This document shows, one piece after another, positions 2,705 through 20,412 of a stretch of 64,000 nt of DNA. Origin of the DNA: a virus. Its lineage: Duplodnaviria > Caudoviricetes. The translations under genes and the position numbers were made by a program. Numbering within the stretch: position 1 is the first letter of the stretch; each line of letters starts with the position of its first letter. Where the stretch lies: the IMG/VR virus record IMGVR_UViG_3300028048_000042. One strand, 5' to 3'. Below the pieces are notes generated by a model. The model had not been told where the DNA came from. It did no database searches and saw only the letters and a list, made by a program, of their open reading frames with translations.

Positions 2705-2735
2705 AAAAAGCGTCACGTTTCGTGACGCTTTTTTT
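2705..2735 (+). terminator. Rho-independent terminator
   Basis: AAAAAGCGTCACG-TTT-CGTGACGCTTTTTTT perfect hairpin. Confidence 0.85.
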
Positions 2736-2794: not shown

Positions 2795-3832
2795 TTGAAA
2801 CATACAATACAGGTACATATGACAAATTCATGCAATTTAAAGTGTGAGTATTGTTACATAAAACAAAATTCATTATCGTTAACGCAAGATGTTCTTGAAC
2901 AACAGTTGGCAAAGGTCAAGGAATTGTCATATATGCTGAGTGGTTGTGATTGCGAATATGATGTTACTTATTTTGGTGGAGAGCCTTTATTGAAAATTGA
3001 CAATGTGTTAAAGTTTGATGAATATATTTGTGATAATTTTGATGTATGTCACAAATTTATGCAAACGAATGGTATGTTGTTGACAAAAGCAATCAAAGAA
3101 AAATTGGACGATAGAAAAATAAATATAGGAATTAGTTGTGATGGTTGCAATGACCCAAATCATAAAGAGGTCGAAAGATTATATCGAGAAAAAATAATCC
3201 ATATGCATCCTAAAATGATGGTTGATGGTTATAACGTTGGTTCGTTGATGGAAAATATAAAATATTTTTTTGATATGGCGATAAGAACTCAGTGCAGAGA
3301 TTTTTATATAGATGCTTCATTTGTTAAGGATAAAGTTTGGAATAAAAAATCATTAGAAATTCTTAAAACCCAATTAGACGAGTTAAATGATTTTATATTG
3401 TGGGTATATAAAAATTATAATTATTACTTAAAAATTGGATTTTTAGACAGAGTATTGCAAAACATTATCAAAGGGAAACGTGATTTTATTTGCTTCGCAG
3501 GCAGTACAGGATTTAGTATTACGCCAACAGGAGTGATATATCCATGTTCTAGGTTTTACAGTGCAAATGAATACCCTTTATATGATAGTAATAGAAATGA
3601 ATTTTTTTATGACAACATAGATTTCATTAAAAAGAATAATATAACAAAGAATGAAAAGTGTAATGAATGTGCGATAAACAAATATTGTAATCAAGGTTGT
3701 TATTATTCACAAATAAAAAATGGTGGCATTATTGACGAATATTGTGAAGTGCAAAAGATAGCTTTCCATAAAGTGACAGAGTTATACAAAAAATTCAGAA
3801 AATTCTATAATATAGATATAACGAGGATGTAA
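2795..3832 (+). CDS. Radical SAM/SPASM domain protein (maturase-like) 1
   Basis: CNLKCEYC, YFGGEPLL, QTNG; C-terminal SPASM Cys pattern CFAG...PC...CNECAINKYCNQGC...YC. TTG start at 2795 with GAGGTG RBS preferred over track start 2738. Confidence 0.9.
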   Translation: MKHTIQVHMTNSCNLKCEYCYIKQNSLSLTQDVLEQQLAKVKELSYMLSGCDCEYDVTYFGGEPLLKIDNVLKFDEYICDNFDVCHKFMQTNGMLLTKAIKEKLDDRKINIGISCDGCNDPNHKEVERLYREKIIHMHPKMMVDGYNVGSLMENIKYFFDMAIRTQCRDFYIDASFVKDKVWNKKSLEILKTQLDELNDFILWVYKNYNYYLKIGFLDRVLQNIIKGKRDFICFAGSTGFSITPTGVIYPCSRFYSANEYPLYDSNRNEFFYDNIDFIKKNNITKNEKCNECAINKYCNQGCYYSQIKNGGIIDEYCEVQKIAFHKVTELYKKFRKFYNIDITRM

Positions 3833-3834
3833 AT

Positions 3835-4275
3835 ATGCAAATTTTTAAACAGAATTCATCAATGCGTTCGAAAAAATTTAGAATTGACGATAGAGTTGTG
3901 AGGATTTGCGAAGCGAAATGGCGATACGATATTATTATTAATAATATTATTGCCATAAGTGATAATCAAAAATTAAAAAAGTATTTGCCAAAACGTATAG
4001 TATGTAATAGCAACAAAATAGAATATGATTATGTAGAAGGTAGAGATTTGGTAAAAAATTTCAACATCAAAGATAATTTTTTGTATGCTAAAATGCTATA
4101 TAATTTGTATGCAGAAAAAGTTTTTATTGCAGATATGCGAAGGGAAAACGTTATTGTTAATGAAGATGGGATTTGCATAATAGATTTAGATAGGCAACCA
4201 ATCTCTCGAAAAGAATTTTTGTTGTTTCATATTTGGGAGTTTGTTACTTTTGGATTTTTGGAAAATTTTAAGTAG
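3835..4275 (+). CDS. Small protein-kinase-like (RIO/Kdo/APH-like fold) protein 1
   Basis: YDYVEG hinge, catalytic loop IADMRRENVI (DxxxxN), metal-binding IIDLD; paralog of 9674..10165. Confidence 0.65.
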   Translation: MQIFKQNSSMRSKKFRIDDRVVRICEAKWRYDIIINNIIAISDNQKLKKYLPKRIVCNSNKIEYDYVEGRDLVKNFNIKDNFLYAKMLYNLYAEKVFIADMRRENVIVNEDGICIIDLDRQPISRKEFLLFHIWEFVTFGFLENFK

Positions 4276-4286
4276 GTGAGATATTT

Positions 4287-5345
4287 TTGAGAACGCCAAT
4301 GAGTGTATCAATCAATATGGGTAGTGGCTGTAATTTCCGTTGCAAATATTGTTTTGAGGTGAAAAACGGCGCAGTTAATCATCCAAAATCATTAACTGCA
4401 AAAACAAAAGAAAGAACAATTGAGGTTTTGCATTTGTTGCAAGAACTCCACGATTTGCGAATTGAATTTTGGGGTGGAGAACCGTCTGTATATTTCAAAG
4501 ATATAAAAGAAATCATTGATGAATTTACACCTTATGAAAATGTATCATTCTTTATGTATACAAATGGCTCTTTGGTAAGTCAGTATGCGGATGAATTGCT
4601 GGAAATTCATAAGAATGTTGGTCATAGATTTGAAGTGCAGGTATCTTATGATTATCAGAATTTGAGTAACAATCAGAGATTGCAATTAAATAAAACTGTT
4701 GAAGAAACAGATGAAATGGTTCGAGATGCAATTAAATTCTTCGATAGAAATGGATTCAAGTTTGGAACAAAAACGACTTGTACAATGAAGGACTTGGAAG
4801 AAAACATTTATGATATGTATCTAAATTATGAACAGTTAAATTCTGAATTGAAACATAAAGTTCCATTTGTTTGTACTCCTGATACTTTAGGTTCAGGTAG
4901 TATTGATTATGAAAAAATGCACGAACAGTTTGTAAAACTGATTAGATATTTTTTGAAGAATAAGAAATTCAAGCAAACAGGATTTTTGTGGTTTGACCAA
5001 AATGGTAATAAAGATTGTATGGGTGGAGCAAATTCATTCCAAATTGATATAGATGGCAGAGTAACGTATTGTCATGGATGTTTGTATATGAATGATAAGA
5101 TGTTTTATACAAATATTTTTGAGGATAATTTTTTGCATAAAATTGACCATAATTACCTTGTTGCAAATTCAAAATTTACAAAACCTGAACAATGCTTAAA
5201 TTGCAATTCGCAATTTTGCTTCAGATGTAATGCAATTAATAGTAAGGGAAATCCTGATAATTGGGATAAACCAAATTCACCTGAGGTATGCAAGCTGTAT
5301 CGAAAAATTTCTGAATATATAGAAGCATATTTAAGAATGAAATGA
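4287..5345 (+). CDS. Radical SAM/SPASM domain protein (maturase-like) 2
   Basis: CNFRCKYC, FWGGEP, YTNG; C-terminal DC...YCHGC...CLNCNSQFCFRC...VC. Confidence 0.9.
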   Translation: MRTPMSVSINMGSGCNFRCKYCFEVKNGAVNHPKSLTAKTKERTIEVLHLLQELHDLRIEFWGGEPSVYFKDIKEIIDEFTPYENVSFFMYTNGSLVSQYADELLEIHKNVGHRFEVQVSYDYQNLSNNQRLQLNKTVEETDEMVRDAIKFFDRNGFKFGTKTTCTMKDLEENIYDMYLNYEQLNSELKHKVPFVCTPDTLGSGSIDYEKMHEQFVKLIRYFLKNKKFKQTGFLWFDQNGNKDCMGGANSFQIDIDGRVTYCHGCLYMNDKMFYTNIFEDNFLHKIDHNYLVANSKFTKPEQCLNCNSQFCFRCNAINSKGNPDNWDKPNSPEVCKLYRKISEYIEAYLRMK

Positions 5346-5448
5346 ATAATTTTTTAGCTGTAGCACTTTGTTATTTGTTTTTGTGTTTTTTGTATTAAAT
5401 GGATAGAGTGCAATAAAATAAAAAAATAATAATGGAAGTGATACAAAA

Positions 5449-6810
5449 ATGTCAATGACAGCAACTAAGTACATTTCAGCATTTTATCAAATCATAAAAG
5501 ACCCAACAGGCACTTTCCCTATTTGTAGACCATATGGTACAAGCGGAAACGATAAAGGGTATGATTTTGGTACTGCATTTTGGGATGGTACTTATTACAA
5601 AGCAAATGCAGATAATGCTAAAGGATTAGCAGGATTTAATAGACGAGATAAAATGTTGAGAGAGACATTTAGTACGGCTGAACCTATTACTAATGTGGAA
5701 TGGAATCAGTTGATTACGAAACTGAGACAGGAATTCGCAATTCGTTGCGAATTTAATGGTTCATATGTTCCATCTGTAAAAACTGTTGGTGTTACAGAAA
5801 CAGGTGATAGAACAAAATCAGGCTCTGACAATCATCAATTCTTTAGTCCAAAAGATGAAATCCTAAGAGAAGATTATAAGAATATCTATCGTGATATTAT
5901 GAGTTTGCTTGTATATGAAATTCCTGTTGAAGATGCCGTAAATAATCCTCGTCTTCCTATGGATAATTTCTCATTCAACCGCAAAAATACCGCAGGTGGA
6001 TATGGCGGTGATTCATCTAACTTGGATGTTAATCCTAACGCAGAAGCCATTAATGAAGGTACTCGTGTGGGGAATAACTGGTGGACAGGACAGAAAATGC
6101 GTGAATATATGTATAGACACGCAACAGGTGCTACTGCAAATAAGGTTATTACAAGTAATGCTAATAACGGTATTTTGTTGACTATGGGATTACCAAGTGA
6201 CATTTTAACTAATAAGGAATATGGTTATACTACATTTGGTAGCCGTAATGTTGCAGCATATATTCCTGGTTCTGATATGAATACAACAAAAACAGTAAGA
6301 AGTAGCAAAAGACCTTATGGTAATACAGACTATCTTGCAAAAACAGTTGATGAAAATGGCACAACTCATATTTTGAAAAATTCAAATGGATTTTATCAGG
6401 TTTCTCAGGAATTTAAGGATATGGTTGCAAAACGTAAACAGTTCTTGGGTGGTAATGTTAAGGTTAAGTGTACACGTACTGTTTTAACAGGTAAAGATGA
6501 ATATGGTATGCCAAAATATGTAACAGAAAAAGAAGAGCGTGAAATGCCACTTGTAACAGCGTTGACATCTGTTACTGTTTCAGGTAACTATACTGTAGAT
6601 ATTAGCGCAGATAGCGTAGGAAGATATTACATGGCTATGGTAAATCAGTTAGCAAGAACTTGTGTATGTAACTGTAATTATTGCTCTTGCTTTGGTCATG
6701 AAGCTAGTTGTATTTGTTATGTTGTAAAAGTTTCAGGTTGGTGCTATTCTTATCAGTATGATTTTGATGCAAACAGAGGTTGGATTTCACCTGAAACTGT
6801 TGCAAAATAA
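5449..6810 (+). CDS. Probable virion (tail fibre/collar-like) protein with Cys-rich C-terminus; putative rSAM substrate
   Basis: Gly/Thr/Asn-rich; structural-gene-like codon use (GGT, CGT); ITNVEWNQLITKLRQE helix; C-terminal CVCNCNYCSCFGHEASCICYVVKVSGWC. Confidence 0.6.
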   Translation: MSMTATKYISAFYQIIKDPTGTFPICRPYGTSGNDKGYDFGTAFWDGTYYKANADNAKGLAGFNRRDKMLRETFSTAEPITNVEWNQLITKLRQEFAIRCEFNGSYVPSVKTVGVTETGDRTKSGSDNHQFFSPKDEILREDYKNIYRDIMSLLVYEIPVEDAVNNPRLPMDNFSFNRKNTAGGYGGDSSNLDVNPNAEAINEGTRVGNNWWTGQKMREYMYRHATGATANKVITSNANNGILLTMGLPSDILTNKEYGYTTFGSRNVAAYIPGSDMNTTKTVRSSKRPYGNTDYLAKTVDENGTTHILKNSNGFYQVSQEFKDMVAKRKQFLGGNVKVKCTRTVLTGKDEYGMPKYVTEKEEREMPLVTALTSVTVSGNYTVDISADSVGRYYMAMVNQLARTCVCNCNYCSCFGHEASCICYVVKVSGWCYSYQYDFDANRGWISPETVAK

Positions 6811-6825
6811 GAAAGGATTATTTTC

Positions 6826-7098
6826 GTGGAAAAACAGATTACAGAAAAAGAAACAAAAGAATTGGAAACGCAGATTAGACTCTTGTGCGAGTATATGAGT
6901 ATGACAGAAGAGTTTATTAAGCCTATTGATGAAATTGCTTGCAAAGCAATTGATAATATCATTAGCATGACAATGATTAGCCTTGGACGAAAGCATGGGT
7001 TGGATTATACATCTAGTGATAAGTCAAAAATTGATGAAAAGAAAGAAAAATCAATTGATGACATTATGAAAGATATAAATGAAGGGACGAAAGATTAA
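6826..7098 (+). CDS. Small hypothetical protein
   Basis: GTG start with AAAGGA RBS; stop overlaps the next start (TAATG). Confidence 0.7.
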   Translation: MEKQITEKETKELETQIRLLCEYMSMTEEFIKPIDEIACKAIDNIISMTMISLGRKHGLDYTSSDKSKIDEKKEKSIDDIMKDINEGTKD

Positions 7099-7730
7099 TG
7101 GCACAGATGTTATTTTATTCAGGTATTATGAAACAGGGGGAGAAAAATTTCCTTGTTAATCCTTTTGAAAAAATTGTTGGTGAGCCTATTTGCTTGCAGA
7201 AAGATGAATATGTTAGTTTGACAGCAGAAGCATATGACAAATTGGTTAATGTTCTTGATTTAAAGTATCGTGAACCAATGTGCATTGTTTATGTTGAAGG
7301 TACAGTTGATGCTGATACGATGGTTAAACTTGAAGACTTGAAGTTCGTAGAGCAGAAACTTGATGCGACAGAGGAAGAAAAGTTGGATATGTACAAAGAA
7401 AAATCCATTCGCATTATGAATGAAATTATTTCAAGTCAGATGATGATTTCCAACTTTGAATTGTTCCATTTCTTTAAATTGAATCATTATCTTGAAGCAA
7501 AAGGCATTTTCATCATTGATGAAAATCGAGAGGAAGAATACATGAAGGTAATTGAAAGTGGCGATGCAGATACATTGCAGGTTCTTTCTGAATATCTTGA
7601 TGCGCTCGATGAATTTAATGTTATTGATGAAAAATATACAAAATATAAAGAGTATAAGGATAAGGTAAAAGCTGCTCAGACCGCAAAGGAAGTTGAGGAA
7701 GTATTTTATGAGTTTACAGCCAAACTATAA
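7098..7730 (+). CDS. Hypothetical helical protein, possibly a tail-fibre assembly chaperone
   Basis: Acidic helical protein ending KVKAAQTAKEVEEV, reminiscent of Tfa/DUF4376-like C-termini; translationally coupled. Confidence 0.45.
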   Translation: MAQMLFYSGIMKQGEKNFLVNPFEKIVGEPICLQKDEYVSLTAEAYDKLVNVLDLKYREPMCIVYVEGTVDADTMVKLEDLKFVEQKLDATEEEKLDMYKEKSIRIMNEIISSQMMISNFELFHFFKLNHYLEAKGIFIIDENREEEYMKVIESGDADTLQVLSEYLDALDEFNVIDEKYTKYKEYKDKVKAAQTAKEVEEVFYEFTAKL

Positions 7731-8532
7731 AAATATAGTTTATATGACTGATAAATCTTATCTTTTTCAAACTTACGTTTCAATGTTATCTTTGAAACAA
7801 AATAAACGCTGTAATGTGAGTTACAGCGTTTATTTATTATGTATTGAATTTGATGATTTGGGTAAGATTGAGTCATTAAACAGTGAAGATTTTCAAATCA
7901 AACCAATTTATATCAAAAAAAACATATTCAAAAGACCTGATAATGCAGGTGTTGTGTATTATAAGTTGTTATTGCATGAGTTGTTGGATTGCGATGTTGT
8001 TTTTCACATTGATTCTGATACGGTGGTCGTAGATGATGTATCGGATATTTTTGATATAGATATATCTGATTATTATTGTGGTGCAGTAAGAGACAAGATA
8101 AAAGGGTTTAGATATTTTAACGCAGGGAACGTGTTGTTTAATTTGAAAAAAATTAGAGAAGATGTTGTAAATGATACAGACACAATGTATGTTTATTATG
8201 ACAGGTTAAATAAACAGTTGCAAGATGAAAAATGTTTTCTTTGGGAACAAGATGTTTTAAATGAAGCATTTAAAGGGAAAATTAAATATATTCATTATGG
8301 ATATAACTTTTTAGTAAACACATATAGCAAATATGGATTTAATGAATTGGTGAGATTGTATGGAGAACCTGTAAAATCAGAAAATTTAAAAATTTTGCAT
8401 TATGCAAGTTTCCCAAAACCTTGGAAAAGACCCAATTTGTTTGGGCAAATTTGGAAGATGTATGCAGAAGAAACTGCAAATAAGGAAAAAGAAAAAATGA
8501 TATTGAAGGTGGCTTGTCGTGAATTTAAATGA
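7708..8532 (+). CDS. Glycosyltransferase family 8
   Basis: YYKLLLHELL..VFHIDSD (DxD), YFNAGNVLFNL, EQDVLN, ILHYASFPKPW; ATG 7708 with GAGGA RBS. Confidence 0.9.
   Translation: MSLQPNYKNIVYMTDKSYLFQTYVSMLSLKQNKRCNVSYSVYLLCIEFDDLGKIESLNSEDFQIKPIYIKKNIFKRPDNAGVVYYKLLLHELLDCDVVFHIDSDTVVVDDVSDIFDIDISDYYCGAVRDKIKGFRYFNAGNVLFNLKKIREDVVNDTDTMYVYYDRLNKQLQDEKCFLWEQDVLNEAFKGKIKYIHYGYNFLVNTYSKYGFNELVRLYGEPVKSENLKILHYASFPKPWKRPNLFGQIWKMYAEETANKEKEKMILKVACREFK
7800..7835 (+). terminator. Terminator-like hairpin embedded in the 5' part of the GT8 gene
   Basis: AAATAAACGCTGTAA-TGTGAG-TTACAGCGTTTATTT, 15-bp perfect stem. Confidence 0.55.
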
Positions 8533-8572
8533 TAATAATATGTTTTTGTATCAGTTTATCTTGGGGACTGAT

Positions 8573-9661
8573 ATGAAAGTAAAAACTCGAAACCAAGACA
8601 CTATTTTAGTTACTTGCAATATTGTATCAAGGGAAGACAAAAATTATTTGTGGGGAGCAGAGAAGTATTGCGTTAAAATTTGTAAAGCGTTGTCAAAAAA
8701 ATACAAAGTGCATTTGTTTCAACATGCAAAGGATTTTCTTGAATTGGATAATGTAGTTGTGCATTCTAATATAGATAATTTCTTTTCAAAGGAAAGAATG
8801 AAAGTAACTGCAAATAAAGTTAAGGCAGTTGCACCAAAATGTATTCTTTGTAATGCAGGCAGTGGACAGCAAGCATTGTATTGGACTATTATTGCAAAGA
8901 TGGTAAATGTACCAATTATAATGTTCTTTCATAATGAACCTGAATATATGTTAAAAACAATTAGCAATATATGGGGCATGAATTACATTAAGAACCAAAA
9001 AGTTGTAAAAAACTCGCAAAAACTGTATGATATGGTCTTGGAAAATTGCAACAAATTAGCATTTTTGTTACCTCAGTATATTGATAAACGATATGAGAAG
9101 AAATCATATGTTTTTTACAATTGTGTAGAATTACCTGAACACGTTGATGTTGAACAAGAAAGACAGAACATCTTGTATGTTGGTCGTATAAATTCGGATG
9201 TTAAACGTACAGATTTACTAATAGATGCAGTAAAAGATACGGAATATCCATGTTATATTTGTGGATATAATTATTATGGTCAAGGCTATATAGACATGAG
9301 TTGGTATGAAGATACAAATATCCATTATGAAGGGTATCAGGAAAATGTAGCTGATTATTATAAAAATGCTAAAGTTCTTGTAATCCCATCTTTATTGGAA
9401 GGTTTGCCAACAGTTGCTTTAGAAGCTATGTCATATGGTGTTCCTGTGCTTGGATTCAAAGAATGTAAATCAATAAATGATATAGTAAAAGATGGATATA
9501 ATGGTTGGGTAATTGAAAATGATTTGAAGGGGAAAATATCTGAAATTATGTCCATTGAAGATATGACAGAAATTAGAAAAAATTGTATAGAAGAATCAAA
9601 AAAATATAGCATAGAAAAAATCATGGTTGAAATTGAAAAAGCGATAAAATCATGTCGGTAA
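8573..9661 (+). CDS. Glycosyltransferase family 4 (GT-B)
   Basis: WGAEKY, ILYVGRI...K, VIPSLLEGLPTVALEAMSYGVPV, IVKDGYNGW; ATG 8573 preferred over 8519. Confidence 0.9.
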   Translation: MKVKTRNQDTILVTCNIVSREDKNYLWGAEKYCVKICKALSKKYKVHLFQHAKDFLELDNVVVHSNIDNFFSKERMKVTANKVKAVAPKCILCNAGSGQQALYWTIIAKMVNVPIIMFFHNEPEYMLKTISNIWGMNYIKNQKVVKNSQKLYDMVLENCNKLAFLLPQYIDKRYEKKSYVFYNCVELPEHVDVEQERQNILYVGRINSDVKRTDLLIDAVKDTEYPCYICGYNYYGQGYIDMSWYEDTNIHYEGYQENVADYYKNAKVLVIPSLLEGLPTVALEAMSYGVPVLGFKECKSINDIVKDGYNGWVIENDLKGKISEIMSIEDMTEIRKNCIEESKKYSIEKIMVEIEKAIKSCR

Positions 9662-9673
9662 AGGGATATTGAT

Positions 9674-10165
9674 ATGAAAATTTTAACAACTGATAAAAAT
9701 AAAAATTTATTAAGTAAAGACACTGACTTTAAATTTGTTAGTAATGGGTGTGTTTATAGGTTTGTCAGTGAAACAGTTAAACAAGATATATTGATAAATT
9801 ATCATAATATTGTTGATAAAAATTTACAAAAATATTTACCGAAAAATATTTGTATTAATCGCAATATGGTTACTTATCAATATGTGGAAGGTAGAGATTT
9901 GGAATATTGCTATTCAATAAGAATGAATTATTTATATGCAAAAATGTTGTTCGAGCTTTGGAAATCAAATTGTTATATTTTTGACCTTTCTCGAAGAAAC
10001 GTTATTTTTGATGGAGAAAAAATTGTCATTATAGATTTGGATTGTAAGCCAAAAGCAAATTGTACAAAATGGCAATATGCAAAAGAATGTTTGTATCGTT
10101 TTAGAGATACAATGGTAAATTGTGGGACTATGATAAAAAGATTGGAAAGATTTTTATGCGAGTGA
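9674..10165 (+). CDS. Small protein-kinase-like protein 2
   Basis: KYLPKNI, YQYVEGRDL, IFDLSRRNVI, IIDLD; paralog of 3835..4275. Confidence 0.65.
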   Translation: MKILTTDKNKNLLSKDTDFKFVSNGCVYRFVSETVKQDILINYHNIVDKNLQKYLPKNICINRNMVTYQYVEGRDLEYCYSIRMNYLYAKMLFELWKSNCYIFDLSRRNVIFDGEKIVIIDLDCKPKANCTKWQYAKECLYRFRDTMVNCGTMIKRLERFLCE

Positions 10166-11055
10166 ATTTAATTTATTTTTTGTATGAGTTAAATGGAGCT
10201 TATACTTCATTTGAAGACTTGTTCTACAATTTGAAGCGTTTTACAGATAATGATGTTCGATTTATTATTTTATATGAAGATAAGGATGTGCTTGTTCGAT
10301 TTAAAGAATATTTGGCTTTCGGAACAGGTATTTGCTATTTACAAATTGAAAAAGAAGGGTATCATAATATGAAATTTCCTATCAAATACGATATTAAGGG
10401 AGATATAAATGTTATTAGTACCGAAATTATTCAGTTGGAATGGCATGACAGATTTGTACAACATTCAAACAAAACATATTTGCTATATCCTGCCTTTGTA
10501 TATAAAGATGAAGGACTAGACCACAGCATTTTTGAGTATCAAATGAATTATATTAAAGAACATAATGTTTTGACAATTTGTAATGAATTTAATGCAAAGT
10601 ATGTGGATAATAGTTTTGTTTGGTATATGAAGTTTTCACCTGAACGAATTGAAAAAATAAAAAAGCTTGTTAGTTTTGAAAATGATACTTTGGTAGCAGA
10701 AGATTATTACAAGAATAAAATGGAAGGTAGAAATATAAAACCTTTTTCGTATAAAAAATATGAATATTATAGATATGACAAGAAAAATGATTTCAACAAC
10801 TATACTGATAATGGAGCAAGATATTATGAAAATATCGGTAAATTAATGTTTGAATTTGTTTTTCTTGGCAAAGAATCGACATATTCACCAAAGAATAAAA
10901 AGTTCTTTGATGGATTGAGTGAATTTATGAGATATATTGGATATGATGACGAAAAGGAATATACTTTTACTAAAGATGATATGCCATTGTTAAAAAAGAA
11001 ACTGTATATGGATAAAGATGATGAAATATTAAAACTCTTTAGAGAAGAAGGTTAA
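10156..11055 (+). CDS. Hypothetical protein, possibly a diverged GT-B-like transferase
   Basis: ORF coupled to its neighbours; N-terminal beta-strand then NGAYTSFEDL loosely resembles GT-B N-termini. Confidence 0.4.
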   Translation: MRVNLIYFLYELNGAYTSFEDLFYNLKRFTDNDVRFIILYEDKDVLVRFKEYLAFGTGICYLQIEKEGYHNMKFPIKYDIKGDINVISTEIIQLEWHDRFVQHSNKTYLLYPAFVYKDEGLDHSIFEYQMNYIKEHNVLTICNEFNAKYVDNSFVWYMKFSPERIEKIKKLVSFENDTLVAEDYYKNKMEGRNIKPFSYKKYEYYRYDKKNDFNNYTDNGARYYENIGKLMFEFVFLGKESTYSPKNKKFFDGLSEFMRYIGYDDEKEYTFTKDDMPLLKKKLYMDKDDEILKLFREEG

Positions 11056-11058
11056 AAA

Positions 11059-12651: not shown

Positions 12652-12657
12652 TATTAA

Positions 12658-13416
12658 TTGAAACATATACCTTTGATTGAATATCACCTAACAAACCATT
12701 GCAATTTAAACTGTAAGGGGTGTGCTCATTTTGCACCTCTTGCAGAGCCTTGGTTTGCAGATGTAAAGCAATTTGAAAAAGATTTAAACAAATTAACAGA
12801 TAAAGTAATTATTGATGAATTGATTATGTTTGGTGGAGAACCATTATTGCATCCAACAATATGTGATTTCTTTGAAATGGCAAGAAAAATTTTACCACAT
12901 GCAAAAATTTGTGTTTTAACGAATGGAGTTAATTTATTGAAAGAGTTGCCTAAATTAAAGGATTCTCTTGTTAAGAATGAAATTATTGTTGATATAACAA
13001 GTTATCCGATTAACGTTAATTATAAAATGACATTGAAAATGTTAAAAGCATTTGGAGTAAAATATAAAATTTATAATGATTTAGAACCAATAAAAACATT
13101 AAGAAAACATAAATTATCTCATGAAAAGAAAGAAAATACATGGGATTGCTTAATGATAAATTCTAAATCTGTGCAGTTGAAAGATGGGAAATTGTATATT
13201 TGTCCAATACAAGCGTATATTGATATTTTTAACAAATATTTTAATGAGAATTATGAGGTTGACGAATCGGATATTTTGACTCTTACAGATGATACAACAG
13301 ATGATGAAATCTTAAATATGTATTATCACAAAAATGAATTTTGCAAATTTTGTAGAGAACCAATTGTAGGAAATAAATATTCTACATCAAAAAGAGATAA
13401 GCAAGAATGGACGTAA
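12658..13416 (+). CDS. Radical SAM protein (short, twitch-like auxiliary Cys), paralog A
   Basis: CNLNCKGCAHFAP, FGGEPLLHP, LTNG, DC...ICP...FCKFC. Confidence 0.88.
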   Translation: MKHIPLIEYHLTNHCNLNCKGCAHFAPLAEPWFADVKQFEKDLNKLTDKVIIDELIMFGGEPLLHPTICDFFEMARKILPHAKICVLTNGVNLLKELPKLKDSLVKNEIIVDITSYPINVNYKMTLKMLKAFGVKYKIYNDLEPIKTLRKHKLSHEKKENTWDCLMINSKSVQLKDGKLYICPIQAYIDIFNKYFNENYEVDESDILTLTDDTTDDEILNMYYHKNEFCKFCREPIVGNKYSTSKRDKQEWT

Positions 13417-13431
13417 AATTAAAAAAGTGTT

Positions 13432-14271
13432 ATGATTAGAGAGAATTATGCAATGGATATAAAATATTGTTTTAAGACTCAAATCGTGGATGAATGTAAC
13501 TTGAATTGCTGTGGGTGCGACCATTTTGCACCCATAGCTGATTCTTGGCATCAACCGTTGGGAGATTTTATTAAAATGATGAAAACTCTTAAAAATACAG
13601 TTGGTGATAGCATAAAAGAAATTGAGTTATACGGTGGTGAACCATTATTACATAAGGATTTATATAGAATGCTTATGGCGTGTGAAATTATATTTCCTCA
13701 AACGGTAATATTATCAATAGAAAGTAATGGTTTATTGCTTGATAGTTTTTTACAAAAGAATAAATCTTTGCAAAAAGATACGAGAATTGAATATCAGATT
13801 ACAGAATATGCAACAACACAAGGAATTGTGGATAGATTAAAAAATAAATATCCTAATTTAGTGATTTTTAGGTCTAAGCATACACCTTTAGAATTAAACA
13901 CAAATAAAAGCTGTTGGAAAGATTGTATGTTTAATATAAATCTTCAGTATGAGGAAAATGAAGAAAGACAATGGGAAATATATAAGCATTGTTACTGTAA
14001 AAGCTTTGAAGAACATAGCGTTTGTTTGCGAAATTGGAAAATTTCTCCATGTCCTTTAGTTATGTGTATAGATATATTTGATGGTTACTTTGGCGAACAT
14101 TTTTATAATGAGGAAAATTATGTCAAAGTGACAGAATCATTAAATAAAGATGATTTGTATAAAATGGCGCATGTTCCTTGTGAACATTGTAAACGCTGTG
14201 GGAATGTAGTATATGGATTTCCTTATAAAATGTCAGAGAAGAAAAAATCTGAATGGGTGGTAGAAAAGTGA
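13432..14271 (+). CDS. Radical SAM protein, paralog B
   Basis: CNLNCCGCDHFAP, YGGEPLLH, ESNG, PCP...CEHCKRC. Confidence 0.88.
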   Translation: MIRENYAMDIKYCFKTQIVDECNLNCCGCDHFAPIADSWHQPLGDFIKMMKTLKNTVGDSIKEIELYGGEPLLHKDLYRMLMACEIIFPQTVILSIESNGLLLDSFLQKNKSLQKDTRIEYQITEYATTQGIVDRLKNKYPNLVIFRSKHTPLELNTNKSCWKDCMFNINLQYEENEERQWEIYKHCYCKSFEEHSVCLRNWKISPCPLVMCIDIFDGYFGEHFYNEENYVKVTESLNKDDLYKMAHVPCEHCKRCGNVVYGFPYKMSEKKKSEWVVEK

Positions 14272-15581
14272 TAAAGGATTTAATAACAAAACAAGGAATT
14301 ATGATTGATATAACCAATGCTTGTGTTAATCAGTGCGGTAATTGTATGCGATTTTGTGGTTATCATGATGACCCATTTTTTATGGAATTTGAATATTTTA
14401 AAAAAGTTGTTGATAGCTTGCACGATTTTGATGGGCAAATAGGTATAATTGGCGGTGAGCCAACATTACATCCTGATTTTGTTAAAATGGTTGAGTATAT
14501 AAGAGATACATATCCGCATAAAAAAGAAAAAGGATTTGTAAGACAACCAATCTCTGATGTTAATGGATATATTTTTAATAATAATGTGGATGATGTTGGC
14601 AAATTCAAGTTGTTTACTTGTGCAAAGACGCAACAATTTTATGATAATTTTGAGTTAATAGATGATGTATTCGAATCATTTAGATTTAATGACCACAGTC
14701 AAGGAACAAGACATTTTACAACCTTGGTTGATTATAAAGATTTGGGGTTGTCTGATGGCGAATTTAAAATGTTGGAAAATGATTGTTGGGTACAAAATTA
14801 TTGTTTTGCTACGGTAACGCCTAAAGGTGGTTTCTTCTGCGAAATGGCAGGAGCTTTAGATATGCTTTATGGTGGAGATGGCGGTTTCGAAATTAAAGAT
14901 GGTTGGTGGAAACGTTATCGTAAAGATTTCGAGTGTCAAGAACAATGGTGTGCACATTGTGGTGCAAGATTAGGTTTGCCAATGAGATTGGATTCAGAAA
15001 ATAAAGACTACGTTTCTAAAAGCGTTGTCGATAATTTAAAGCATACCAAACGCATACGTAATAATGATTATAAAATAATAACCAAAGAAGAATATCAAAA
15101 AAATTGGATGAAATGGCGAGAAGAAAAATCTAAAAAATTAGATTTAGTTGATGAAATTTGTGTTGATAATAATAATCCATTTTTTAGACCTCAACACATA
15201 TCATTTGTTAATAAGTATGATGATATATTGAAGCAAGATGATTGGGTTATATGTGGGGATTATGCAGGTAAAGAAAAATATGTTCTTGATTTTATGAATA
15301 ATCATTTTTTTAATATAGGGTGTTTGTACTATATGGAAGATGAACCGATATTTGCGGTTAATGTAAAATCTAATGCATTGAAGGATTTAACGAAGATTGA
15401 TATGAATCCTTGGGGATATTATGATTTACAAAAAATAGTGAAAATAAATAATTTTGAAGATGATGTATTAAAAGCAACAGATGAAGTTATGTCTGTTAGG
15501 GGAATTATGGATGTAAGTGTTGCAAAGCAAAAAGCAGAATTAATGAAAAAGATAAGGGATAAAATGAAATGTTCGACATAA
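14268..15581 (+). CDS. Radical SAM protein (different family) with C-terminal extension
   Basis: IDITNACVNQCGNCMRFC, IGGEPTLHP, CWVQ..C, FFCE, WCAHCG; GTG start overlapping the previous stop (GTGA). Confidence 0.85.
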   Translation: MIKDLITKQGIMIDITNACVNQCGNCMRFCGYHDDPFFMEFEYFKKVVDSLHDFDGQIGIIGGEPTLHPDFVKMVEYIRDTYPHKKEKGFVRQPISDVNGYIFNNNVDDVGKFKLFTCAKTQQFYDNFELIDDVFESFRFNDHSQGTRHFTTLVDYKDLGLSDGEFKMLENDCWVQNYCFATVTPKGGFFCEMAGALDMLYGGDGGFEIKDGWWKRYRKDFECQEQWCAHCGARLGLPMRLDSENKDYVSKSVVDNLKHTKRIRNNDYKIITKEEYQKNWMKWREEKSKKLDLVDEICVDNNNPFFRPQHISFVNKYDDILKQDDWVICGDYAGKEKYVLDFMNNHFFNIGCLYYMEDEPIFAVNVKSNALKDLTKIDMNPWGYYDLQKIVKINNFEDDVLKATDEVMSVRGIMDVSVAKQKAELMKKIRDKMKCST

Positions 15582-16378
15582 AAACCATTTTAAAAAGCAA
15601 AATTTGGATGAAAGAAAATCTTGGCGAAATAGATATTCCTGTTGTGAATCATTGTAATCTTAATTGTGCAAGCTGTGACCATTTTGCTCCATTAGCGGAA
15701 AAGCATTTTTATAAATTGGAAAACTATATTAAAAATCTTGATAGACTTAAAGCCTTGTTAAAAGATAAAAAAATATATAGAATTAATTTGATGGGTGGAG
15801 AGCCGTTGTTACATCCTCAATTAATTGATTTTTGTAGAGTAACAAGAGAAAAATTTTCAGATACAAATATATTCATTACAACCAATGGCATTTTATTGCC
15901 ACAGTGGGAGAAAGAAAATGGGCATATTTTAAAAAAGCTAAATATAAGAATTTTGGTTACAGAATACAACAAAGATAAAAATTTCTATAAAATGAATTTG
16001 CTGAAAGAAAAAAGCAGTCAAAAAAGTTATCAGTATTGCAATAATCGTAATATAAATGTACTTGAAATAATTGATAATGTCGATGAAGAGTTTCACGAGT
16101 TTTATTCCGATTTCCCATGTACGCAGTTAAATGAAAATGGAGATTATTTTTCATGTATTATTCCTGCAAATATTGAAATCTTTAATAAACATTTTAAAAC
16201 AAAATATGAACTGATAGAAGGTCAAGACTTTGTTAACATTTTTAACATTGATGATTTGTCAGAAATGATTAGGATTACGCAATGCAAAAAAATACCATTT
16301 TGTGATTATTGTGGGAAGAAAACTGTCGTGAAATGGAAAGGAAGTAAAAATGATGAACAAGAATGGGTTGAACAGTAA
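15569..16378 (+). CDS. Radical SAM protein, paralog C
   Basis: CNLNCASCDHFAP, MGGEPLLHP, TTNG, FCDYC. Confidence 0.88.
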   Translation: MFDIKTILKSKIWMKENLGEIDIPVVNHCNLNCASCDHFAPLAEKHFYKLENYIKNLDRLKALLKDKKIYRINLMGGEPLLHPQLIDFCRVTREKFSDTNIFITTNGILLPQWEKENGHILKKLNIRILVTEYNKDKNFYKMNLLKEKSSQKSYQYCNNRNINVLEIIDNVDEEFHEFYSDFPCTQLNENGDYFSCIIPANIEIFNKHFKTKYELIEGQDFVNIFNIDDLSEMIRITQCKKIPFCDYCGKKTVVKWKGSKNDEQEWVEQ

Positions 16379-18191
16379 TAATCCATTAAATTTGATGAAT
16401 AATATTTATAAATTTGTAAAAGGACGAAGAGCAGAATTGTTGTTGGTTGAGTTACCGACTGTCAATGAATTGTCAAGAAAAACAGAATTGCAAGTTATAA
16501 GTAGTATGATTTGTGGAGATATGGTATATAAAGATTTGTCCACGCATAATAATGAATGTGAAATGTTCTTTGATGAATATAACAAAAAGATGTTTAGAAA
16601 GGTTATTTATGATAATAAAGACCTATACGAAAAGTGTTTTGATGATTTTTCTTCAGATTATATTGATAAAATTTGTGCATGTGACCCTGATTTAATTCAA
16701 AATAATAATTATTTTTGTATGGAAGACTACGAATCTGATTTTATGAATATTAAGGATGGAGTTCGAAAAACAGCAAATCAAATTGATGATAATAATCATA
16801 ATATTTTTGTGTTTGGTAACTCAACAACTTTTGGTTATTATGTTGCTGACAATGAAACTATTGCAAGTTTTTTACAAAAATATGTTGCACCATATAAATA
16901 CAATGTTTACAATTATGCTACAATTAATGATACGTTGTTAAATATTTATAACCGTGTTATTAATACAGGTATTTGTGATAATGATATTGTGGTTATTGGT
17001 ATTCCAAAGGGATTTCTTGGGAAAGATGCGTTTTTGTTTCCTCATGTTGATACAACAGATGGATTTTATATTCATACTGAAAAAGAAAACTTGATTGACC
17101 GTGCACATTTGACAGCTTATTGTCATGATTGGATTGCTGAAATGATTTTCAACAATATTAAAAAAGATATAGATTGTTTCGATGTGAAAGATGAAACTGT
17201 AGAATCGCAGGTAAAAATGCTTATTTCAGATTTCAGAAGAGAATGTGAAATGTTTGATGATTCTTTGCAGGTGGGTGCTTCTGTAATGAGTTGTAACCCA
17301 TTTACATCAGGTCATAGGCATCTTGTGGAAATTGGCAGTAAAATGTTTGATTATTTTGTCGTGTTTTTGATGCAAGAAGGAATGAATCTTGTTTTCGATA
17401 AAGCAGAATGTGAAAATTTGGTTCGCGTAGGAGTAGAAGATTTAGACAATGTAATTGTTGTACCAATGTCCGATATGTTTACTTATCAAACATTTTGGCC
17501 TGAATACAATGATGTTGCACTTAGACATAGTAAAAATTATATAGGATTGAATACTTATAATCTTTTAAATGTTGTAGGTAAAGCATTCAAAAGGCTTAAT
17601 ATCAAACATTTTCTTTGCGGTATCGAAACAGATGATAACATCACAAGACAACATATTGTTCAAGCAAAAACGGTATTTCCACAAAATGACATTAATGTTA
17701 TTTGTATTCCTCGCAAACAAATGAAAAATAATAAATTGAGCATTAGTGGTACGGAATGTCGTAAGATGTTAGCACAAGGTGAATATGATAAATTAAACGG
17801 ATTTCTTCAACCACAAATTGTTGATTATATTCGAGAAAATAAATTGACTGTTCAGCAACCAAAATTTCCAACTAAGATGATTGTGGAGTTGCTTGAAAAA
17901 GAATCAAAGAGAATTTTAACAAAAAACAAAAAAGATTTGAATTTGCTTATTGTTGATAAAGAAGATTGCTTGAAGAATATTAAAGCTTTGAGAAAAATTG
18001 TAAAAGGTTGTTCGAAAGAGGAATTACTGTCAATTGTTCAATTACATATTCAAGCATCTGTTTGGGCAGGTTACTTATATTTAATAAATGTAGAAATGGA
18101 TGAAGACCTGTACAATATTATTATGAGTAAATTGAAAGATGATGAATATAAGCAGAAATTGAGGGATAAACATGATGGAGTTGCAAACTAA
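16350..18191 (+). CDS. SGNH/GDSL-like domain fused to a CitC (citrate lyase ligase)-like HIGH nucleotidyltransferase
   Basis: IFVFGNSTTFG (GDSL block I-like) and IDRAHLT (DxxH); GASVMSCNPFTSGHRHLVE and ISGTECRKML match CitC-type NPFTxGH and ISASxVR motifs. Confidence 0.7.
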   Translation: MMNKNGLNSNNPLNLMNNIYKFVKGRRAELLLVELPTVNELSRKTELQVISSMICGDMVYKDLSTHNNECEMFFDEYNKKMFRKVIYDNKDLYEKCFDDFSSDYIDKICACDPDLIQNNNYFCMEDYESDFMNIKDGVRKTANQIDDNNHNIFVFGNSTTFGYYVADNETIASFLQKYVAPYKYNVYNYATINDTLLNIYNRVINTGICDNDIVVIGIPKGFLGKDAFLFPHVDTTDGFYIHTEKENLIDRAHLTAYCHDWIAEMIFNNIKKDIDCFDVKDETVESQVKMLISDFRRECEMFDDSLQVGASVMSCNPFTSGHRHLVEIGSKMFDYFVVFLMQEGMNLVFDKAECENLVRVGVEDLDNVIVVPMSDMFTYQTFWPEYNDVALRHSKNYIGLNTYNLLNVVGKAFKRLNIKHFLCGIETDDNITRQHIVQAKTVFPQNDINVICIPRKQMKNNKLSISGTECRKMLAQGEYDKLNGFLQPQIVDYIRENKLTVQQPKFPTKMIVELLEKESKRILTKNKKDLNLLIVDKEDCLKNIKALRKIVKGCSKEELLSIVQLHIQASVWAGYLYLINVEMDEDLYNIIMSKLKDDEYKQKLRDKHDGVAN

Positions 18192-19083
18192 ATTTGCAAT
18201 AATTATACCAACATATAATCGCCCTGACAAAATTAAAAAAGCTATAAGGTCTGTCAAACAACAGACCTTTTTTAATTGGGAGATATATATAGTGGATGAT
18301 TGTTCAGATGTACAATATTCTTCTGAAATTTGGGAAGACATAAAAGATAAAGTTAAATATTATAGATTAGATAAAAACAGAGGGCATTGTTATGCAAGAA
18401 ATTTCGCATTACAACAAATTGAAGATGAAGTTTGGGTGAAATATCTTGACGATGATGACGAAATTTTACCAACATGTTTGGAAAATTTGAATAATTTCAT
18501 TGTTAGAAATCCAAACGTTAATGTAATATCGACAAATTATATTAAGCGGTTTGATACATATGAGAAGATTTGTGAGACAAATTATCATAAATACAGTGTG
18601 TTTTCAGGGAAGTTAGATACTTGTGCTATATGTCATAAGAAAGATTTGTATGAGCAAATTGGTGGTTGGGATGAAAGACTTTATCGTATGGCAGATGATG
18701 ATTTTTTCTTTAATTACATTTCAAATGGTAATTATGGCTATTGTAATGTTGTGACTTCAGTGTTTTATGATACGTCAGATGAAGATAGAGTAACCAATAT
18801 ATGTTCAAATTTAAAATATTGTAACATTATTGCCGAAAAATATGATTATTTTAAAAATAATCGTTGCTTGATTTTAACAAACAATGAGGGTAATATAATG
18901 GACGAGAATTATAATATAGAATCTTTCATGCCTTTTGATGTATCGAATACTATAAAGAAAGGATATAAATACATTATAAAGTATGATAAAAATGATTCTT
19001 TAAATGATATTTTTCAAAAAAAATATCATTTAGAAAAATTACCTATACGTGTTGGCAATAGCATTCTTATAAAAGGAGTTTGA
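18172..19083 (+). CDS. Glycosyltransferase family 2
   Basis: IIIPTYNR, IVDDCS, NRGHCYARN, YLDDDD, IGGWDE, ADDD. Confidence 0.92.
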   Translation: MMELQTKFAIIIPTYNRPDKIKKAIRSVKQQTFFNWEIYIVDDCSDVQYSSEIWEDIKDKVKYYRLDKNRGHCYARNFALQQIEDEVWVKYLDDDDEILPTCLENLNNFIVRNPNVNVISTNYIKRFDTYEKICETNYHKYSVFSGKLDTCAICHKKDLYEQIGGWDERLYRMADDDFFFNYISNGNYGYCNVVTSVFYDTSDEDRVTNICSNLKYCNIIAEKYDYFKNNRCLILTNNEGNIMDENYNIESFMPFDVSNTIKKGYKYIIKYDKNDSLNDIFQKKYHLEKLPIRVGNSILIKGV

Positions 19084-19086
19084 AGT

Positions 19087-20124
19087 ATGAATGTTTTTAT
19101 GCTTAATTATAAAAGCAAAGAAAGGTCAATAGCAATACATCATAATTATACTTTTCAATTAAAGGATATGAATGATGTTGAAGATATGAAGAAAAAAGCA
19201 AGTGAATATAAAGAATATTTGTTTTATTGCATTAAAAATAAAGATAAATGGTGGTATAGATTCTTCAAAAAGAAACGACCTGAATGGTTGGTAATCAAGA
19301 AAAAATATTGGAATACAGACATAAAATATTTTATTAAAGAAGTAATTTCGGCGTTGAGGATTTATGAAAAGAAAATTCCGTATATCAATTTGATGGCTAC
19401 TCAATATTGCAACTTGAATTGTAAAGGGTGTGGAGCGTTGATGCCTTTATACAATAAAAGTAAAGAACGTAAATTTTGGGAAGTAGAACAATTAGATAAA
19501 GTTCTAAAACGTTATAGTGAGATTTTTAATGGTGAGGATGAATATTTAAATACAATTGATATTGTAGGTGGAGAACCATTATTACATCCAAACATTTGTG
19601 AGTTTTGTTCGACTGTAAGAAAATATAATCCTAAATCTAAAATTGTTATTATAACAAACGGTTTGTTGCTAGATAAAATGCCAAAAGAATTTTATGAAAT
19701 GGTTTTAGAAAATGATATTAATATAGCATTATCTGTATATGGTGATGATATTTATTTTGAAAAATACAATATAGGGTATAATAAGGAAAACTGTGACGAA
19801 GTTCGTTGCGATAAATGTAGTGGACACTTGCCAATTGTTGATTATAAGAAGAGAACTGTTTCTTTTGGTGGTGTGCAATTATTACCTGATGGGAAATTAT
19901 GTTATTGTGCTTGCGCAGGTGTAGATAAGCTTAATGAATGTTTTGGTACTGATTTCAAAACTGTTGAAAATTCCGATTGGATTGATATTTTTACTCATAC
20001 AAAAGAAGATATATTGGAAATGTTTCAAAAACCGTATTGTGAATTTTCAAAATATTGTAATAAACGTGATTTGTTCCCTTGGGATATTTCTAAATGTAAA
20101 AGTGACGAATGGTTATTTTTGTAA
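19087..20124 (+). CDS. Radical SAM protein, paralog D, with N-terminal extension
   Basis: CNLNCKGC, VGGEPLLHP, ITNG, LCYC, YCEFSKYC. Confidence 0.88.
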   Translation: MNVFMLNYKSKERSIAIHHNYTFQLKDMNDVEDMKKKASEYKEYLFYCIKNKDKWWYRFFKKKRPEWLVIKKKYWNTDIKYFIKEVISALRIYEKKIPYINLMATQYCNLNCKGCGALMPLYNKSKERKFWEVEQLDKVLKRYSEIFNGEDEYLNTIDIVGGEPLLHPNICEFCSTVRKYNPKSKIVIITNGLLLDKMPKEFYEMVLENDINIALSVYGDDIYFEKYNIGYNKENCDEVRCDKCSGHLPIVDYKKRTVSFGGVQLLPDGKLCYCACAGVDKLNECFGTDFKTVENSDWIDIFTHTKEDILEMFQKPYCEFSKYCNKRDLFPWDISKCKSDEWLFL

Positions 20125-20172: not shown

Positions 20173-20400
20173 ATGGAAGAATTGAAAACTGACGAGCAGA
20201 ACATTGACCCAACTGTAAATGATGGTGTCATGACTAATCAGCAGTGGGAGACTTTTGCAAAGGGCGACCTTATTAATTTCCTTATTGGTCATAAGCTTCA
20301 GAAGGTAACTGTTGATGATGGTTGTGGCAAGAAAGCAACTGTAAAGATTAAGTCTAATGGTGAATATTCTGTTTCTTACACATCTAGCGAAGTAATGTAA
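20173..20400 (+). CDS. Small hypothetical phage protein
   Basis: AAGGA RBS, 75 aa, structural-gene-like codons. Confidence 0.7.
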   Translation: MEELKTDEQNIDPTVNDGVMTNQQWETFAKGDLINFLIGHKLQKVTVDDGCGKKATVKIKSNGEYSVSYTSSEVM

Positions 20401-20412
20401 GAAGGTTCTGCT

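What the first reader, a model, noticed from the sequence alone, without database searches (positions are those of the whole stretch)
2795..20124. Phage-encoded ~17 kb radical SAM / glycosyl / carbamoyl / kinase modification locus beside the virion genes
Seen: 17 consecutive + strand genes, many translationally coupled. They comprise 7 radical SAM enzymes, 2 kinase-fold proteins, GT8, GT4, GT2, a NodU/CmcH carbamoyltransferase, an SGNH-CitC-like fusion, one unknown and three structural-looking ORFs (5449-7730), directly upstream of head/neck/tail genes. Known: SPASM rSAMs modify peptides or proteins; NodU/TobZ enzymes O-carbamoylate sugars; short rSAMs such as BtrN act on sugars; some phages glycosylate their virions with their own GTs. 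Inference: the phage cross-links a virion protein and decorates it with an unusual carbamoylated/acylated/phosphorylated glycan, a natural-product-style cluster applied to the particle. DNA hypermodification is the alternative, but no nucleotide hydroxymethylase or thymidylate-synthase-like gene is in the window.
Basis: partly seen in the sequence, partly recalled or inferred. Interest (0 to 1): 0.92.

Follow-up and report, generated by a model that had tools for sequence, protein, structure and literature searches.

The report
Phage fibre crosslinking and glycosylation locus
A giant gut-type phage related to Bacillus phage G carries 18 intact, conserved genes that probably crosslink the cysteine-rich end of a tail-fibre-type protein and build an unusual carbamoylated sugar chain, most likely for its own particle; no such chemistry has been shown on a virus, and the sugar's target is not proven.

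Summary
Observation confirmed, with corrections: 18 genes (not 17); the 'unknown' is a fourth, GT-B-fold glycosyltransferase; the two kinases occur only in this window; no capsid gene follows. The locus is two modules. (1) A SPASM radical SAM pair, a protein ending in helix + CxCNCNYC, and two small partners. This set recurs in unrelated phages (34 of 50 motif loci have the SPASM pair, control 0 of 13). 22 relatives run into a Peptidase_S74 fibre-chaperone start, and the Campylobacter phage IBB_35 relative was detected in virions. (2) GT8, GT4, GT-B, carbamoyltransferase and GT2 as core, with exchangeable BtrN-like short radical SAMs and an SGNH-CitC fusion. The cassette is syntenic and under purifying selection in 11 related contigs and cleanly absent from a 504-kb relative, so it is old, accessory and not a decaying host fragment. 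DNA as target is disfavoured: this clade strongly avoids restriction sites. It is not excluded, because one distant carrier lineage has a dCMP-type thymidylate synthase homologue. No enzyme activity or target is shown. The scan has already reported this system on other genomes.

The parts
2795..3832 (+). Radical SAM/SPASM enzyme A (345 aa), core of fibre module
   Evidence: Pfam Radical_SAM + weak SPASM; best NCBIfam PapB E 9e-31, far under cut-off; orthologue in all carriers that cover the site
3835..4275 (+). Mini kinase-fold protein A (146 aa), accessory
   Evidence: WaaY E 0.001, under cut-off; 44% identical to kinase B; absent from other carriers, where a DNA methyltransferase or nothing occupies this part of the locus
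4287..5345 (+). Radical SAM/SPASM enzyme B (352 aa), core of fibre module
   Evidence: 61-68% identity in clade; full-length homologue in Campylobacter phages CP220/IBB_35
5449..6810 (+). Fibre-type protein with C-terminal helix + CxCNCNYC tail (453 aa); inferred SPASM substrate and candidate glycan acceptor
   Evidence: 9 invariant tail Cys in 11 homologues of 35-50% identity; hhalign 93%, E 3e-7 to the S74-linked short family; relative in IBB_35 virions
6826..7098 (+). 90-aa helical partner, function unknown
   Evidence: conserved position in all carriers; no family hit
7098..7730 (+). 210-aa partner of the fibre module (possible assembly factor)
   Evidence: homologue in 34 of 50 motif loci; CP220 gp015 next to baseplate hub; IBB_35 homologue not in the virion list
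7693..8532 (+). GT8 glycosyltransferase, core
   Evidence: PF01501 E 1.5e-23; DxD present
8519..9661 (+). GT4 glycosyltransferase, core
   Evidence: PF00534 E 7e-24; EX7E present
9674..10165 (+). Mini kinase-fold protein B (163 aa), accessory
   Evidence: RIO1 E 0.026; absent at this place in other carriers
10156..11055 (+).
   Evidence: AlphaFold pLDDT 85.5, pTM 0.88; VIA top rows all GT-B, Z 13.6-12; paralogues in relatives
11059..12651 (+). NodU/TobZ-family O-carbamoyltransferase, core
   Evidence: PF02543 + PF16861; PDB relatives NovN, GdmN, TobZ; own clade of 36-81% identity, then a drop to 33% or less
12658..13416 (+). Short Twitch-type radical SAM C (252 aa), near-core
   Evidence: auxiliary Cys 164, 182, 229, 232; absent only in L052
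13432..14271 (+). Short radical SAM D (279 aa), exchangeable
14253..15581 (+). Radical SAM E (442 aa), exchangeable
   Evidence: present in G001, G005, L026, absent in G003, L027, L028
15569..16378 (+). Short radical SAM F (269 aa), exchangeable
16350..18191 (+). SGNH-like + CitC-ligase-like fusion (613 aa); inferred acyl activation and O-acyl transfer; exchangeable
   Evidence: PF08218 E 6e-24; weak SGNH hit; GNS, DxxH, TxGH and SxTxxR motifs present
18172..19083 (+). GT2 glycosyltransferase, core
   Evidence: PF00535 E 7e-29
19087..20124 (+). Radical SAM G (345 aa; short-type core with about 90-aa N-terminal extension), accessory
   Evidence: no orthologue at this place in other carriers
2705..2733 (.). 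Bidirectional-looking terminator hairpin just before the locus
   Evidence: consensus match only
4..1038 (+). 3' part of the conserved 830-910-aa ORF that is the left border of the cassette
   Evidence: in G002 it is followed directly by a 126-aa ORF and the orthologue of the 21451 ORF
20173..21225 (+). Right border: 75-aa ORF, 100-aa coiled-coil ORF and SLOG-like ORF, conserved in carriers

Best explanation
An accessory, vertically kept virion-maturation cassette with two linked modules. Module 1: the SPASM pair uses SAM radicals to modify, most likely by Cys-to-carbon thioether links as in ranthipeptides, the CxCNCNYC tail of a trimeric fibre-type particle protein (5449-6810), helped by the 90- and 210-aa partners. 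Module 2: four soluble glycosyltransferases use host nucleotide sugars to build a short glycan; the carbamoyltransferase adds an O-carbamoyl group, and a variable set of Twitch radical SAMs (oxidation or epimerisation of sugar carbons), an acyl ligase/SGNH fusion and here two mini-kinases tailor it. The most likely acceptor is a phage structural protein, possibly the same fibre. Shown: gene content, folds, synteny, family links, selection. Inferred: every reaction, the substrate of module 1 (about 0.7) and the virion as glycan target (about 0.55).
For: Synteny of the core in 11 other contigs at 30-70% identity, similar to neighbouring virion genes, with pN 0.17-0.30 against pS 0.58-0.78. Motif scan: 50 in-frame loci, 34 with SPASM A/B, 34 with the 210-aa partner (11 clusters at 60%); reversed-motif control 0 of 13. 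22 motif proteins continue into the SDxRLK start of a Peptidase_S74 chaperone, Pfam over cut-off in the three tested. IBB_35 gene 3-9 (60,317 Da computed, 60,318 listed) carries the repeat and was found in virions by MS, at 2.6% coverage (PMC3322345 Table S2). Glycan genes are coupled directly behind the fibre module in every carrier, and GT-B or GT2 genes flank the module in a few unrelated lineages too (L125, L128, L134; GT2 in a 10-locus lineage). A related carbamoyltransferase lies with GT-B and short radical SAM genes beside tail-fibre genes in L054. No enzyme has a membrane segment. Short radical SAMs match 7WZV best (E 5e-17) and BtrN over their full length. Precedents: CrpC crosslinks a Cys-rich protein (PMC13692751); mycobacteriophage capsids are glycosylated by phage GTs (Freeman 2023, cited in PMC11256854).
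Against: No direct evidence of any modification. The window's own Cys-rich protein has no S74 domain, a single motif copy and no structural match; its link to fibres runs through relatives. The virion detection of the IBB_35 relative rests on 2.6% coverage. Most motif loci show no detectable glycan genes in the short stretch fetched (7 of 50 with the narrow profiles), so the two modules are separable and may have different targets. No late promoter could be identified. A 504-kb relative builds virions without the cassette.
Confidence: 0.5

Rival explanations
1. Module 1 matures the fibre, but module 2 edits a host surface glycan (capsule, S-layer, flagellin or wall polymer) to block superinfection.
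For: Jumbo-phage GT clusters have been read this way (PMC7824862); GT4 and GT2 score best against envelope and protein-glycan GT models, all far under cut-off; exchangeable tailoring genes fit serotype-like variation.
Against: No flippase, polymerase, priming transferase, membrane protein or nucleotide-sugar gene in the cassette; genes are coupled to the fibre module in all carriers; no close bacterial relative of the carbamoyltransferase.
Confidence: 0.17
2. Module 2 hypermodifies phage DNA: carbamoylation or glycosylation of hydroxymethylcytosine.
For: A phage carbamoyltransferase does this (PMC8670742). Phage-G-like phages encode a thymidylate synthase homologue with Asp at the dCMP-specifying position, and one copy maps to the 500,645-bp carrier contig. 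The 311-aa GT-B also matches T4 alpha-glucosyltransferase at Z 12.2.
Against: The window's clade is strongly depleted in C-containing 6-bp palindromes (O/E 0.57-0.79; GATC absent) although it carries the whole cassette, whereas cassette-less G002 and phage G, which have the dCMP-type enzyme, are at 0.92-0.93. In MetaGPA the DNA-acting enzymes lie next to the synthase, and those flanked by GT1-group genes were on unmodified contigs. The dCMP-type enzyme exists without the cassette (G002, phage G) and has replication genes, not the cassette, as neighbours. No TET/JBP hit (no positive control).
Confidence: 0.12
3. Module 2 makes a free small molecule (aminoglycoside- or pseudo-oligosaccharide-like) or modifies a host metabolite or RNA.
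For: The enzyme set (TobZ-like, BtrN-like, GT4, kinase) mirrors aminoglycoside pathways.
Against: No scaffold synthase, aminotransferase, exporter or resistance gene in the cassette; fixed position between fibre module and virion genes.
Confidence: 0.1
4. The Cys tail binds metal or iron-sulfur clusters or is modified in another way (epimerisation, C-C link), and the SPASM pair does not make thioethers on it.
For: Both enzymes are far below the cut-off of every peptide-maturase model and no separate RRE domain was found; CP220 has the partners scattered.
Against: Near-obligate linkage of motif and SPASM pair across lineages; PapB is the best model for both enzymes.
Confidence: 0.09
5. A recently captured, decaying host capsule or glycosylation fragment.
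For: Slightly lower GC than tail genes (0.25-0.31 vs 0.31-0.36).
Against: All frames intact; GC3 like virion genes; syntenic in 11 contigs; purifying selection; phage-restricted clade.
Confidence: 0.02

Closest known systems
Mycobacteriophage virion glycosylation (Che8; Freeman et al. 2023, cited in PMC11256854)
   Same: Several soluble phage-encoded GTs, no sugar-synthesis or export genes; proposed target is the particle.
   Different: Here a carbamoyltransferase, up to five extra radical SAMs and an acyl ligase fusion tailor the glycan; genes are coupled to a fibre module; nothing is shown experimentally.
Ranthipeptide maturases PapB/CteB, and CrpC/CrpA of Methanococcus voltae (PMC13692751)
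   Same: SPASM radical SAM next to a Cys-rich product; PapB is the best-scoring model; CrpA shows that a whole protein can be the substrate.
   Different: Scores 107 and 69 bits against a cut-off of 340; two different SPASM enzymes; no recognisable RRE; substrate is a 453-aa phage fibre-type protein with a CxCNCNYC tail.
Radical SAM clusters of Campylobacter Firehammervirus phages CP220, CPt10, IBB_35 (PMC2853527, PMC3322345)
   Same: Homologues of enzyme B, the 210-aa partner and the Cys-repeat protein are all present.
   Different: The papers assign no substrate (metabolic advantage proposed); genes are dispersed; this glycan cassette was not seen there.
Twitch radical SAM sugar enzymes BtrN and PDB 7WZV (SpeY of spectinomycin synthesis, by my recollection) with TobZ/NovN carbamoyltransferases
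   Same: Same folds, size and four-Cys auxiliary pattern; act on sugar hydroxyls or carbons.
   Different: Those act on free antibiotics; no aminocyclitol pathway genes here.
5-hydroxymethylcytosine carbamoyltransferase of phages (PMC8670742)
   Same: Same Pfam pair in a phage.
   Different: That enzyme neighbours a dCMP hydroxymethylase; this one neighbours GTs, in a clade with restriction-site avoidance.

Membership tests
Ranthipeptide/sactipeptide maturase (PapB, CteB) | Radical SAM core plus SPASM cysteines | tested here: met
   CxxxCxxC and 7 or more C-terminal Cys in A and B; weak SPASM hits
Ranthipeptide/sactipeptide maturase (PapB, CteB) | Score over the family cut-off | tested here: not met
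   NF047865 107.3 and 68.8 bits vs 340; TIGR03974 78 vs 425; TIGR04115 47 vs 350
Ranthipeptide/sactipeptide maturase (PapB, CteB) | Adjacent Cys-rich substrate gene | tested here: met
   5449-6810; linkage in 34 of 50 motif loci; but a protein, not a short peptide
Ranthipeptide/sactipeptide maturase (PapB, CteB) | Thioether formation | not testable with these tools
   needs in vitro assay or virion MS
CXXX-repeat radical SAM target (TIGR04114, PF27846) | Profile match of the Cys-rich protein | tested here: not met
   no NCBIfam hit for window, L052, L053 or CP220 proteins; Atlas lead only, score 0.87, 25% of cluster
Trimeric phage fibre/spike with S74 intramolecular chaperone | Peptidase_S74 domain after the body | tested here: not met
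   absent in the window protein; met in relatives L103, L146 and as a separate gene in L128
Trimeric phage fibre/spike with S74 intramolecular chaperone | Presence in the virion | tested here: inconclusive
   shown only for the IBB_35 relative, 2.6% coverage
Trimeric phage fibre/spike with S74 intramolecular chaperone | Fibre fold | tested here: inconclusive
   monomer model pLDDT 55, no significant match
NodU/TobZ O-carbamoyltransferase | Kae1-like plus YrdC-like domains with metal-binding His/Asp residues | tested here: met
   both Pfam domains; HxxxH, Asp and GPRALGNRS motifs align with NovN/GdmN
5hmC carbamoyltransferase DNA-modification system | Neighbouring dCMP hydroxymethylase | tested here: not met
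   none within the cassette or 10 kb in any carrier
5hmC carbamoyltransferase DNA-modification system | Hydroxymethylase anywhere in the genome | tested here: inconclusive
   none in G001, G003, G005, but these lack the replication region; present in the L052 lineage
Twitch radical SAM sugar dehydrogenase/epimerase (BtrN type) | About 250-aa partial barrel with a four-Cys auxiliary cluster | tested here: met
   enzyme C Cys 164, 182, 229, 232; full-length profile match to BtrN E 2e-8, best hit 7WZV
Twitch radical SAM sugar dehydrogenase/epimerase (BtrN type) | Sugar substrate | not testable with these tools
   inferred from family and GT context
Phage O-antigen/serotype conversion (GtrABC, Oac) | Membrane flippase, transferase or acyltransferase | tested here: not met
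   no membrane segment in any of the 18 proteins (max 19-residue hydropathy 1.65)
Phage virion glycosylation | Glycan on structural proteins | not testable with these tools
   needs virion glycoproteomics

The most novel reading that the evidence does not exclude
Phages mature their particles with natural-product chemistry: a SPASM pair staples a fibre tip with thioethers, and a coupled pathway puts on a virion protein an O-carbamoylated, radical-edited, variably acylated or phosphorylated glycan whose tailoring genes are swapped between strains like a serotype locus.
Probability: 0.4. Interest if true: 0.9.

Novelty: new variant of a known kind. Interest (0 to 1): 0.72.

Why it matters
Only simple virion glycans (mycobacteriophages) and no radical SAM modification of a phage structural protein were found in the papers searched. 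If right, a widespread class of phage fibres is enzymatically crosslinked, and jumbo gut phages wear a strain-variable tailored glycan that could affect stability, host range or immune recognition. It also offers a substrate for the long-unexplained radical SAM genes of Campylobacter phages, which are in culture, so module 1 can be tested now.

Tried and rejected
No whole genome held. Direct viral scan with the Cys-rich protein found nothing. Fold searches of its monomer model gave no significant match in BFVD, PDB, VIA-wide or Atlas. Complex prediction of the Cys-rich protein with the 210-aa partner gave no verdict. Promoter scan at chance level, 139 vs 127; no shared late motif visible upstream of the Cys-rich gene. 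Bacterial-genome scan with enzyme C found nothing, low sensitivity. The MetaGPA diagnostic residues could not be applied because the text does not give the state in modified contigs. CheckV completeness of G001 (98%) rejected: it lacks baseplate and polymerase genes, so absence of a thymidylate synthase homologue there proves little. An Atlas hint of GT6 (GT-A) for the 311-aa ORF was overruled by the fold. Literature searches for jumbo phage + radical SAM + glycosyltransferase + virion, and phage + radical SAM + cysteine-rich + tail fiber, returned no paper. Freeman 2023 and the SpeY paper were not held.
Full report
1. Observation. The stretch 2795-20124 holds 18 intact + strand ORFs, tightly packed. 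Family searches confirm seven radical SAM proteins, GT8, GT4, GT2, a two-domain carbamoyltransferase and a CitC-like fusion. The two kinase-like ORFs are short paralogues with catalytic-loop motifs but only sub-threshold hits. The unknown ORF folds confidently and matches GT-B enzymes throughout the top of the list, so there are four glycosyltransferases.

2. Source. The sheath at 30.7 kb is 41% identical to gp178 of Bacillus phage G, and the genes at 26-31 kb match phage G gp173-177. The window is part of a phage-G-like jumbo myovirus. Close relatives have 75-83% sheath identity.

3. Conservation. The cassette lies at the same place, between an 830-910-aa ORF and a group of small ORFs, in G001, G003, G005, L026, L027, L028, L045, L047, L052, L053 and L055; several of these are near kin. 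The fixed order is SPASM A, SPASM B, Cys-rich protein, 90-aa, 210-aa, GT8, GT4, GT-B, carbamoyltransferase, then GT2 (seen wherever the fetched stretch reaches it). Short radical SAM C is missing only in L052; D, E, F, G, the SGNH-CitC fusion and a second GT-B come and go; the kinases are private to this window. Identities (49-70% for most enzymes, 35-51% for GT2) are close to those of neighbouring virion genes, and pN is about a third of pS. The 504-kb relative G002 has the two border genes side by side and no carbamoyltransferase, GT8 or Cys-rich gene; G004 and phage G show no carbamoyltransferase either. The enzyme forms its own clade with a sharp drop to bacterial sequences. The cassette is therefore old, selected and accessory, which refutes the decaying-capture reading.

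4. Module 1. The 453-aa protein varies in its body but keeps a helix followed by nine invariant cysteines. At the same position L052 and L053 have 206-230-aa proteins with long CNCNYC repeats. A motif scan of IMG/VR gave 64 loci, 50 in frame; 34 have a SPASM A/B homologue and 34 the 210-aa partner within 1-15 kb, against none of 13 control loci. In 22 of these proteins the repeat runs into the SDxRLK start of a Peptidase_S74 intramolecular chaperone, the folding aid of trimeric phage fibres and spikes (established knowledge); Pfam confirms it in the three cases tested. The window protein aligns with this family over helix and motif but has no S74 domain itself. Campylobacter phages CP220 and IBB_35 have the repeat protein about 2 kb from the enzyme B homologue, and the IBB_35 protein is listed among virion proteins. 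PapB is the best model for both enzymes, far under cut-off. CrpC shows thioether crosslinking of a whole Cys-rich protein by such an enzyme (PMC13692751). Inference: A and B crosslink the fibre tail.

5. Module 2. The core is three or four soluble GTs and an intact carbamoyltransferase. The short radical SAMs have BtrN size and cysteine spacing and match 7WZV and BtrN best, which supports sugar editing by inference. There are no membrane, export or nucleotide-sugar genes, so the acceptor is cytoplasmic and donors come from the host or from elsewhere in the genome. GT-B and GT2 genes also flank module 1 in a few unrelated lineages, and a related carbamoyltransferase sits with such genes beside tail-fibre genes in L054. 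This recurrence is the main reason to favour a virion acceptor. Most motif loci show no glycan genes, so the modules are separable.

6. DNA as target. Phage carbamoyltransferases can modify 5hmC, but those lie beside a dCMP hydroxymethylase, and the GT-flanked ones were on unmodified contigs (PMC8670742). None is near this cassette. Searches of G001, G003 and G005 were empty, but these contigs are incomplete. A dCMP-type synthase homologue exists in G002 and phage G without the cassette, and on the 500-kb carrier contig with it, next to replication genes. The independent test is restriction-site avoidance: C-containing 6-bp palindromes are at 0.57-0.79 of expectation in the window's clade, stable across 64-kb tiles, against 0.92-0.93 in G002 and phage G and about 1.0 in L052 and L053. 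Carrying the cassette has not freed the window's clade from restriction pressure, and these phages also carry DNA methyltransferases. Partial or site-specific DNA modification is not excluded.

7. Verdict. Real, intact and conserved. It works most likely as a virion-maturation cassette: crosslinking of a fibre-type protein (about 0.7) and a tailored glycan on a particle protein (about 0.55). It fails membership in named ranthipeptide, CXXX-repeat, serotype-conversion and 5hmC-carbamoylation families on tested features. I found no paper describing it. Earlier notes of this scan describe the same system on other genomes; these are not independent evidence. New variant of known kinds; interest 0.72.

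Noticed in passing
L030:1210-2196 (G002), P0155 (Bacillus phage G), P0146: Phage G and relatives encode a second thymidylate-synthase homologue with Asp at the dCMP-specifying position and show little restriction-site avoidance; phage G DNA may carry modified cytosine, which would bear on its anomalous gel mobility (PMC12484599).
   Followed up: partly
L016:1959-11497 (G003); L019:10788-19976 (G001); L021:9323-14315 (G005): A second cluster about 12-15 kb upstream of the cassette in relatives: a paralogue of the GT-B enzyme, one or two more radical SAMs and a nucleoside deoxyribosyltransferase-like/NUDIX fusion.
   Followed up: no
window 38265-56748: Three consecutive very large (1920-2056 aa) tape-measure-like ORFs, with two chaperone-like genes, where phage G has a single tape measure; also two tube paralogues at 32991-34317.
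   Followed up: no
window 1152-2699: 515-aa anti-repressor-like ORF with its own sigma-70-like promoter and terminators, inserted between the left border gene and the cassette; absent from all relatives.
   Followed up: partly
window 56894-58711: IS607-type element: serine resolvase plus TnpB/Cas12f-like ORF; a similar pair is in L026:1892-3816.
   Followed up: no
window 34469-36769: HNH-like endonuclease ORF and a DNA methyltransferase inserted behind the tube genes.
   Followed up: no
L020:14240-15442; L026:8122-8859; L055:3708-4910: N6/N4 DNA methyltransferase genes inserted inside the SPASM module, next to enzyme B; the window has a kinase gene in the slot used in L026.
   Followed up: no
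L022:7686-17645 (G002): A different cluster of six radical SAM genes near the capsid gene of the cassette-less relative.
   Followed up: no
L110:4721-7285; L119: Three or four tandem paralogues of the Cys-repeat fibre gene behind three SPASM genes.
   Followed up: partly
whole window: GATC and CCGG are entirely absent and CCCG, CCAG nearly so.
   Followed up: partly
G005:150238-151029: 263-aa ORF ending in a CDC/CNC repeat, a second Cys-repeat type, near the end of the contig.
   Followed up: no
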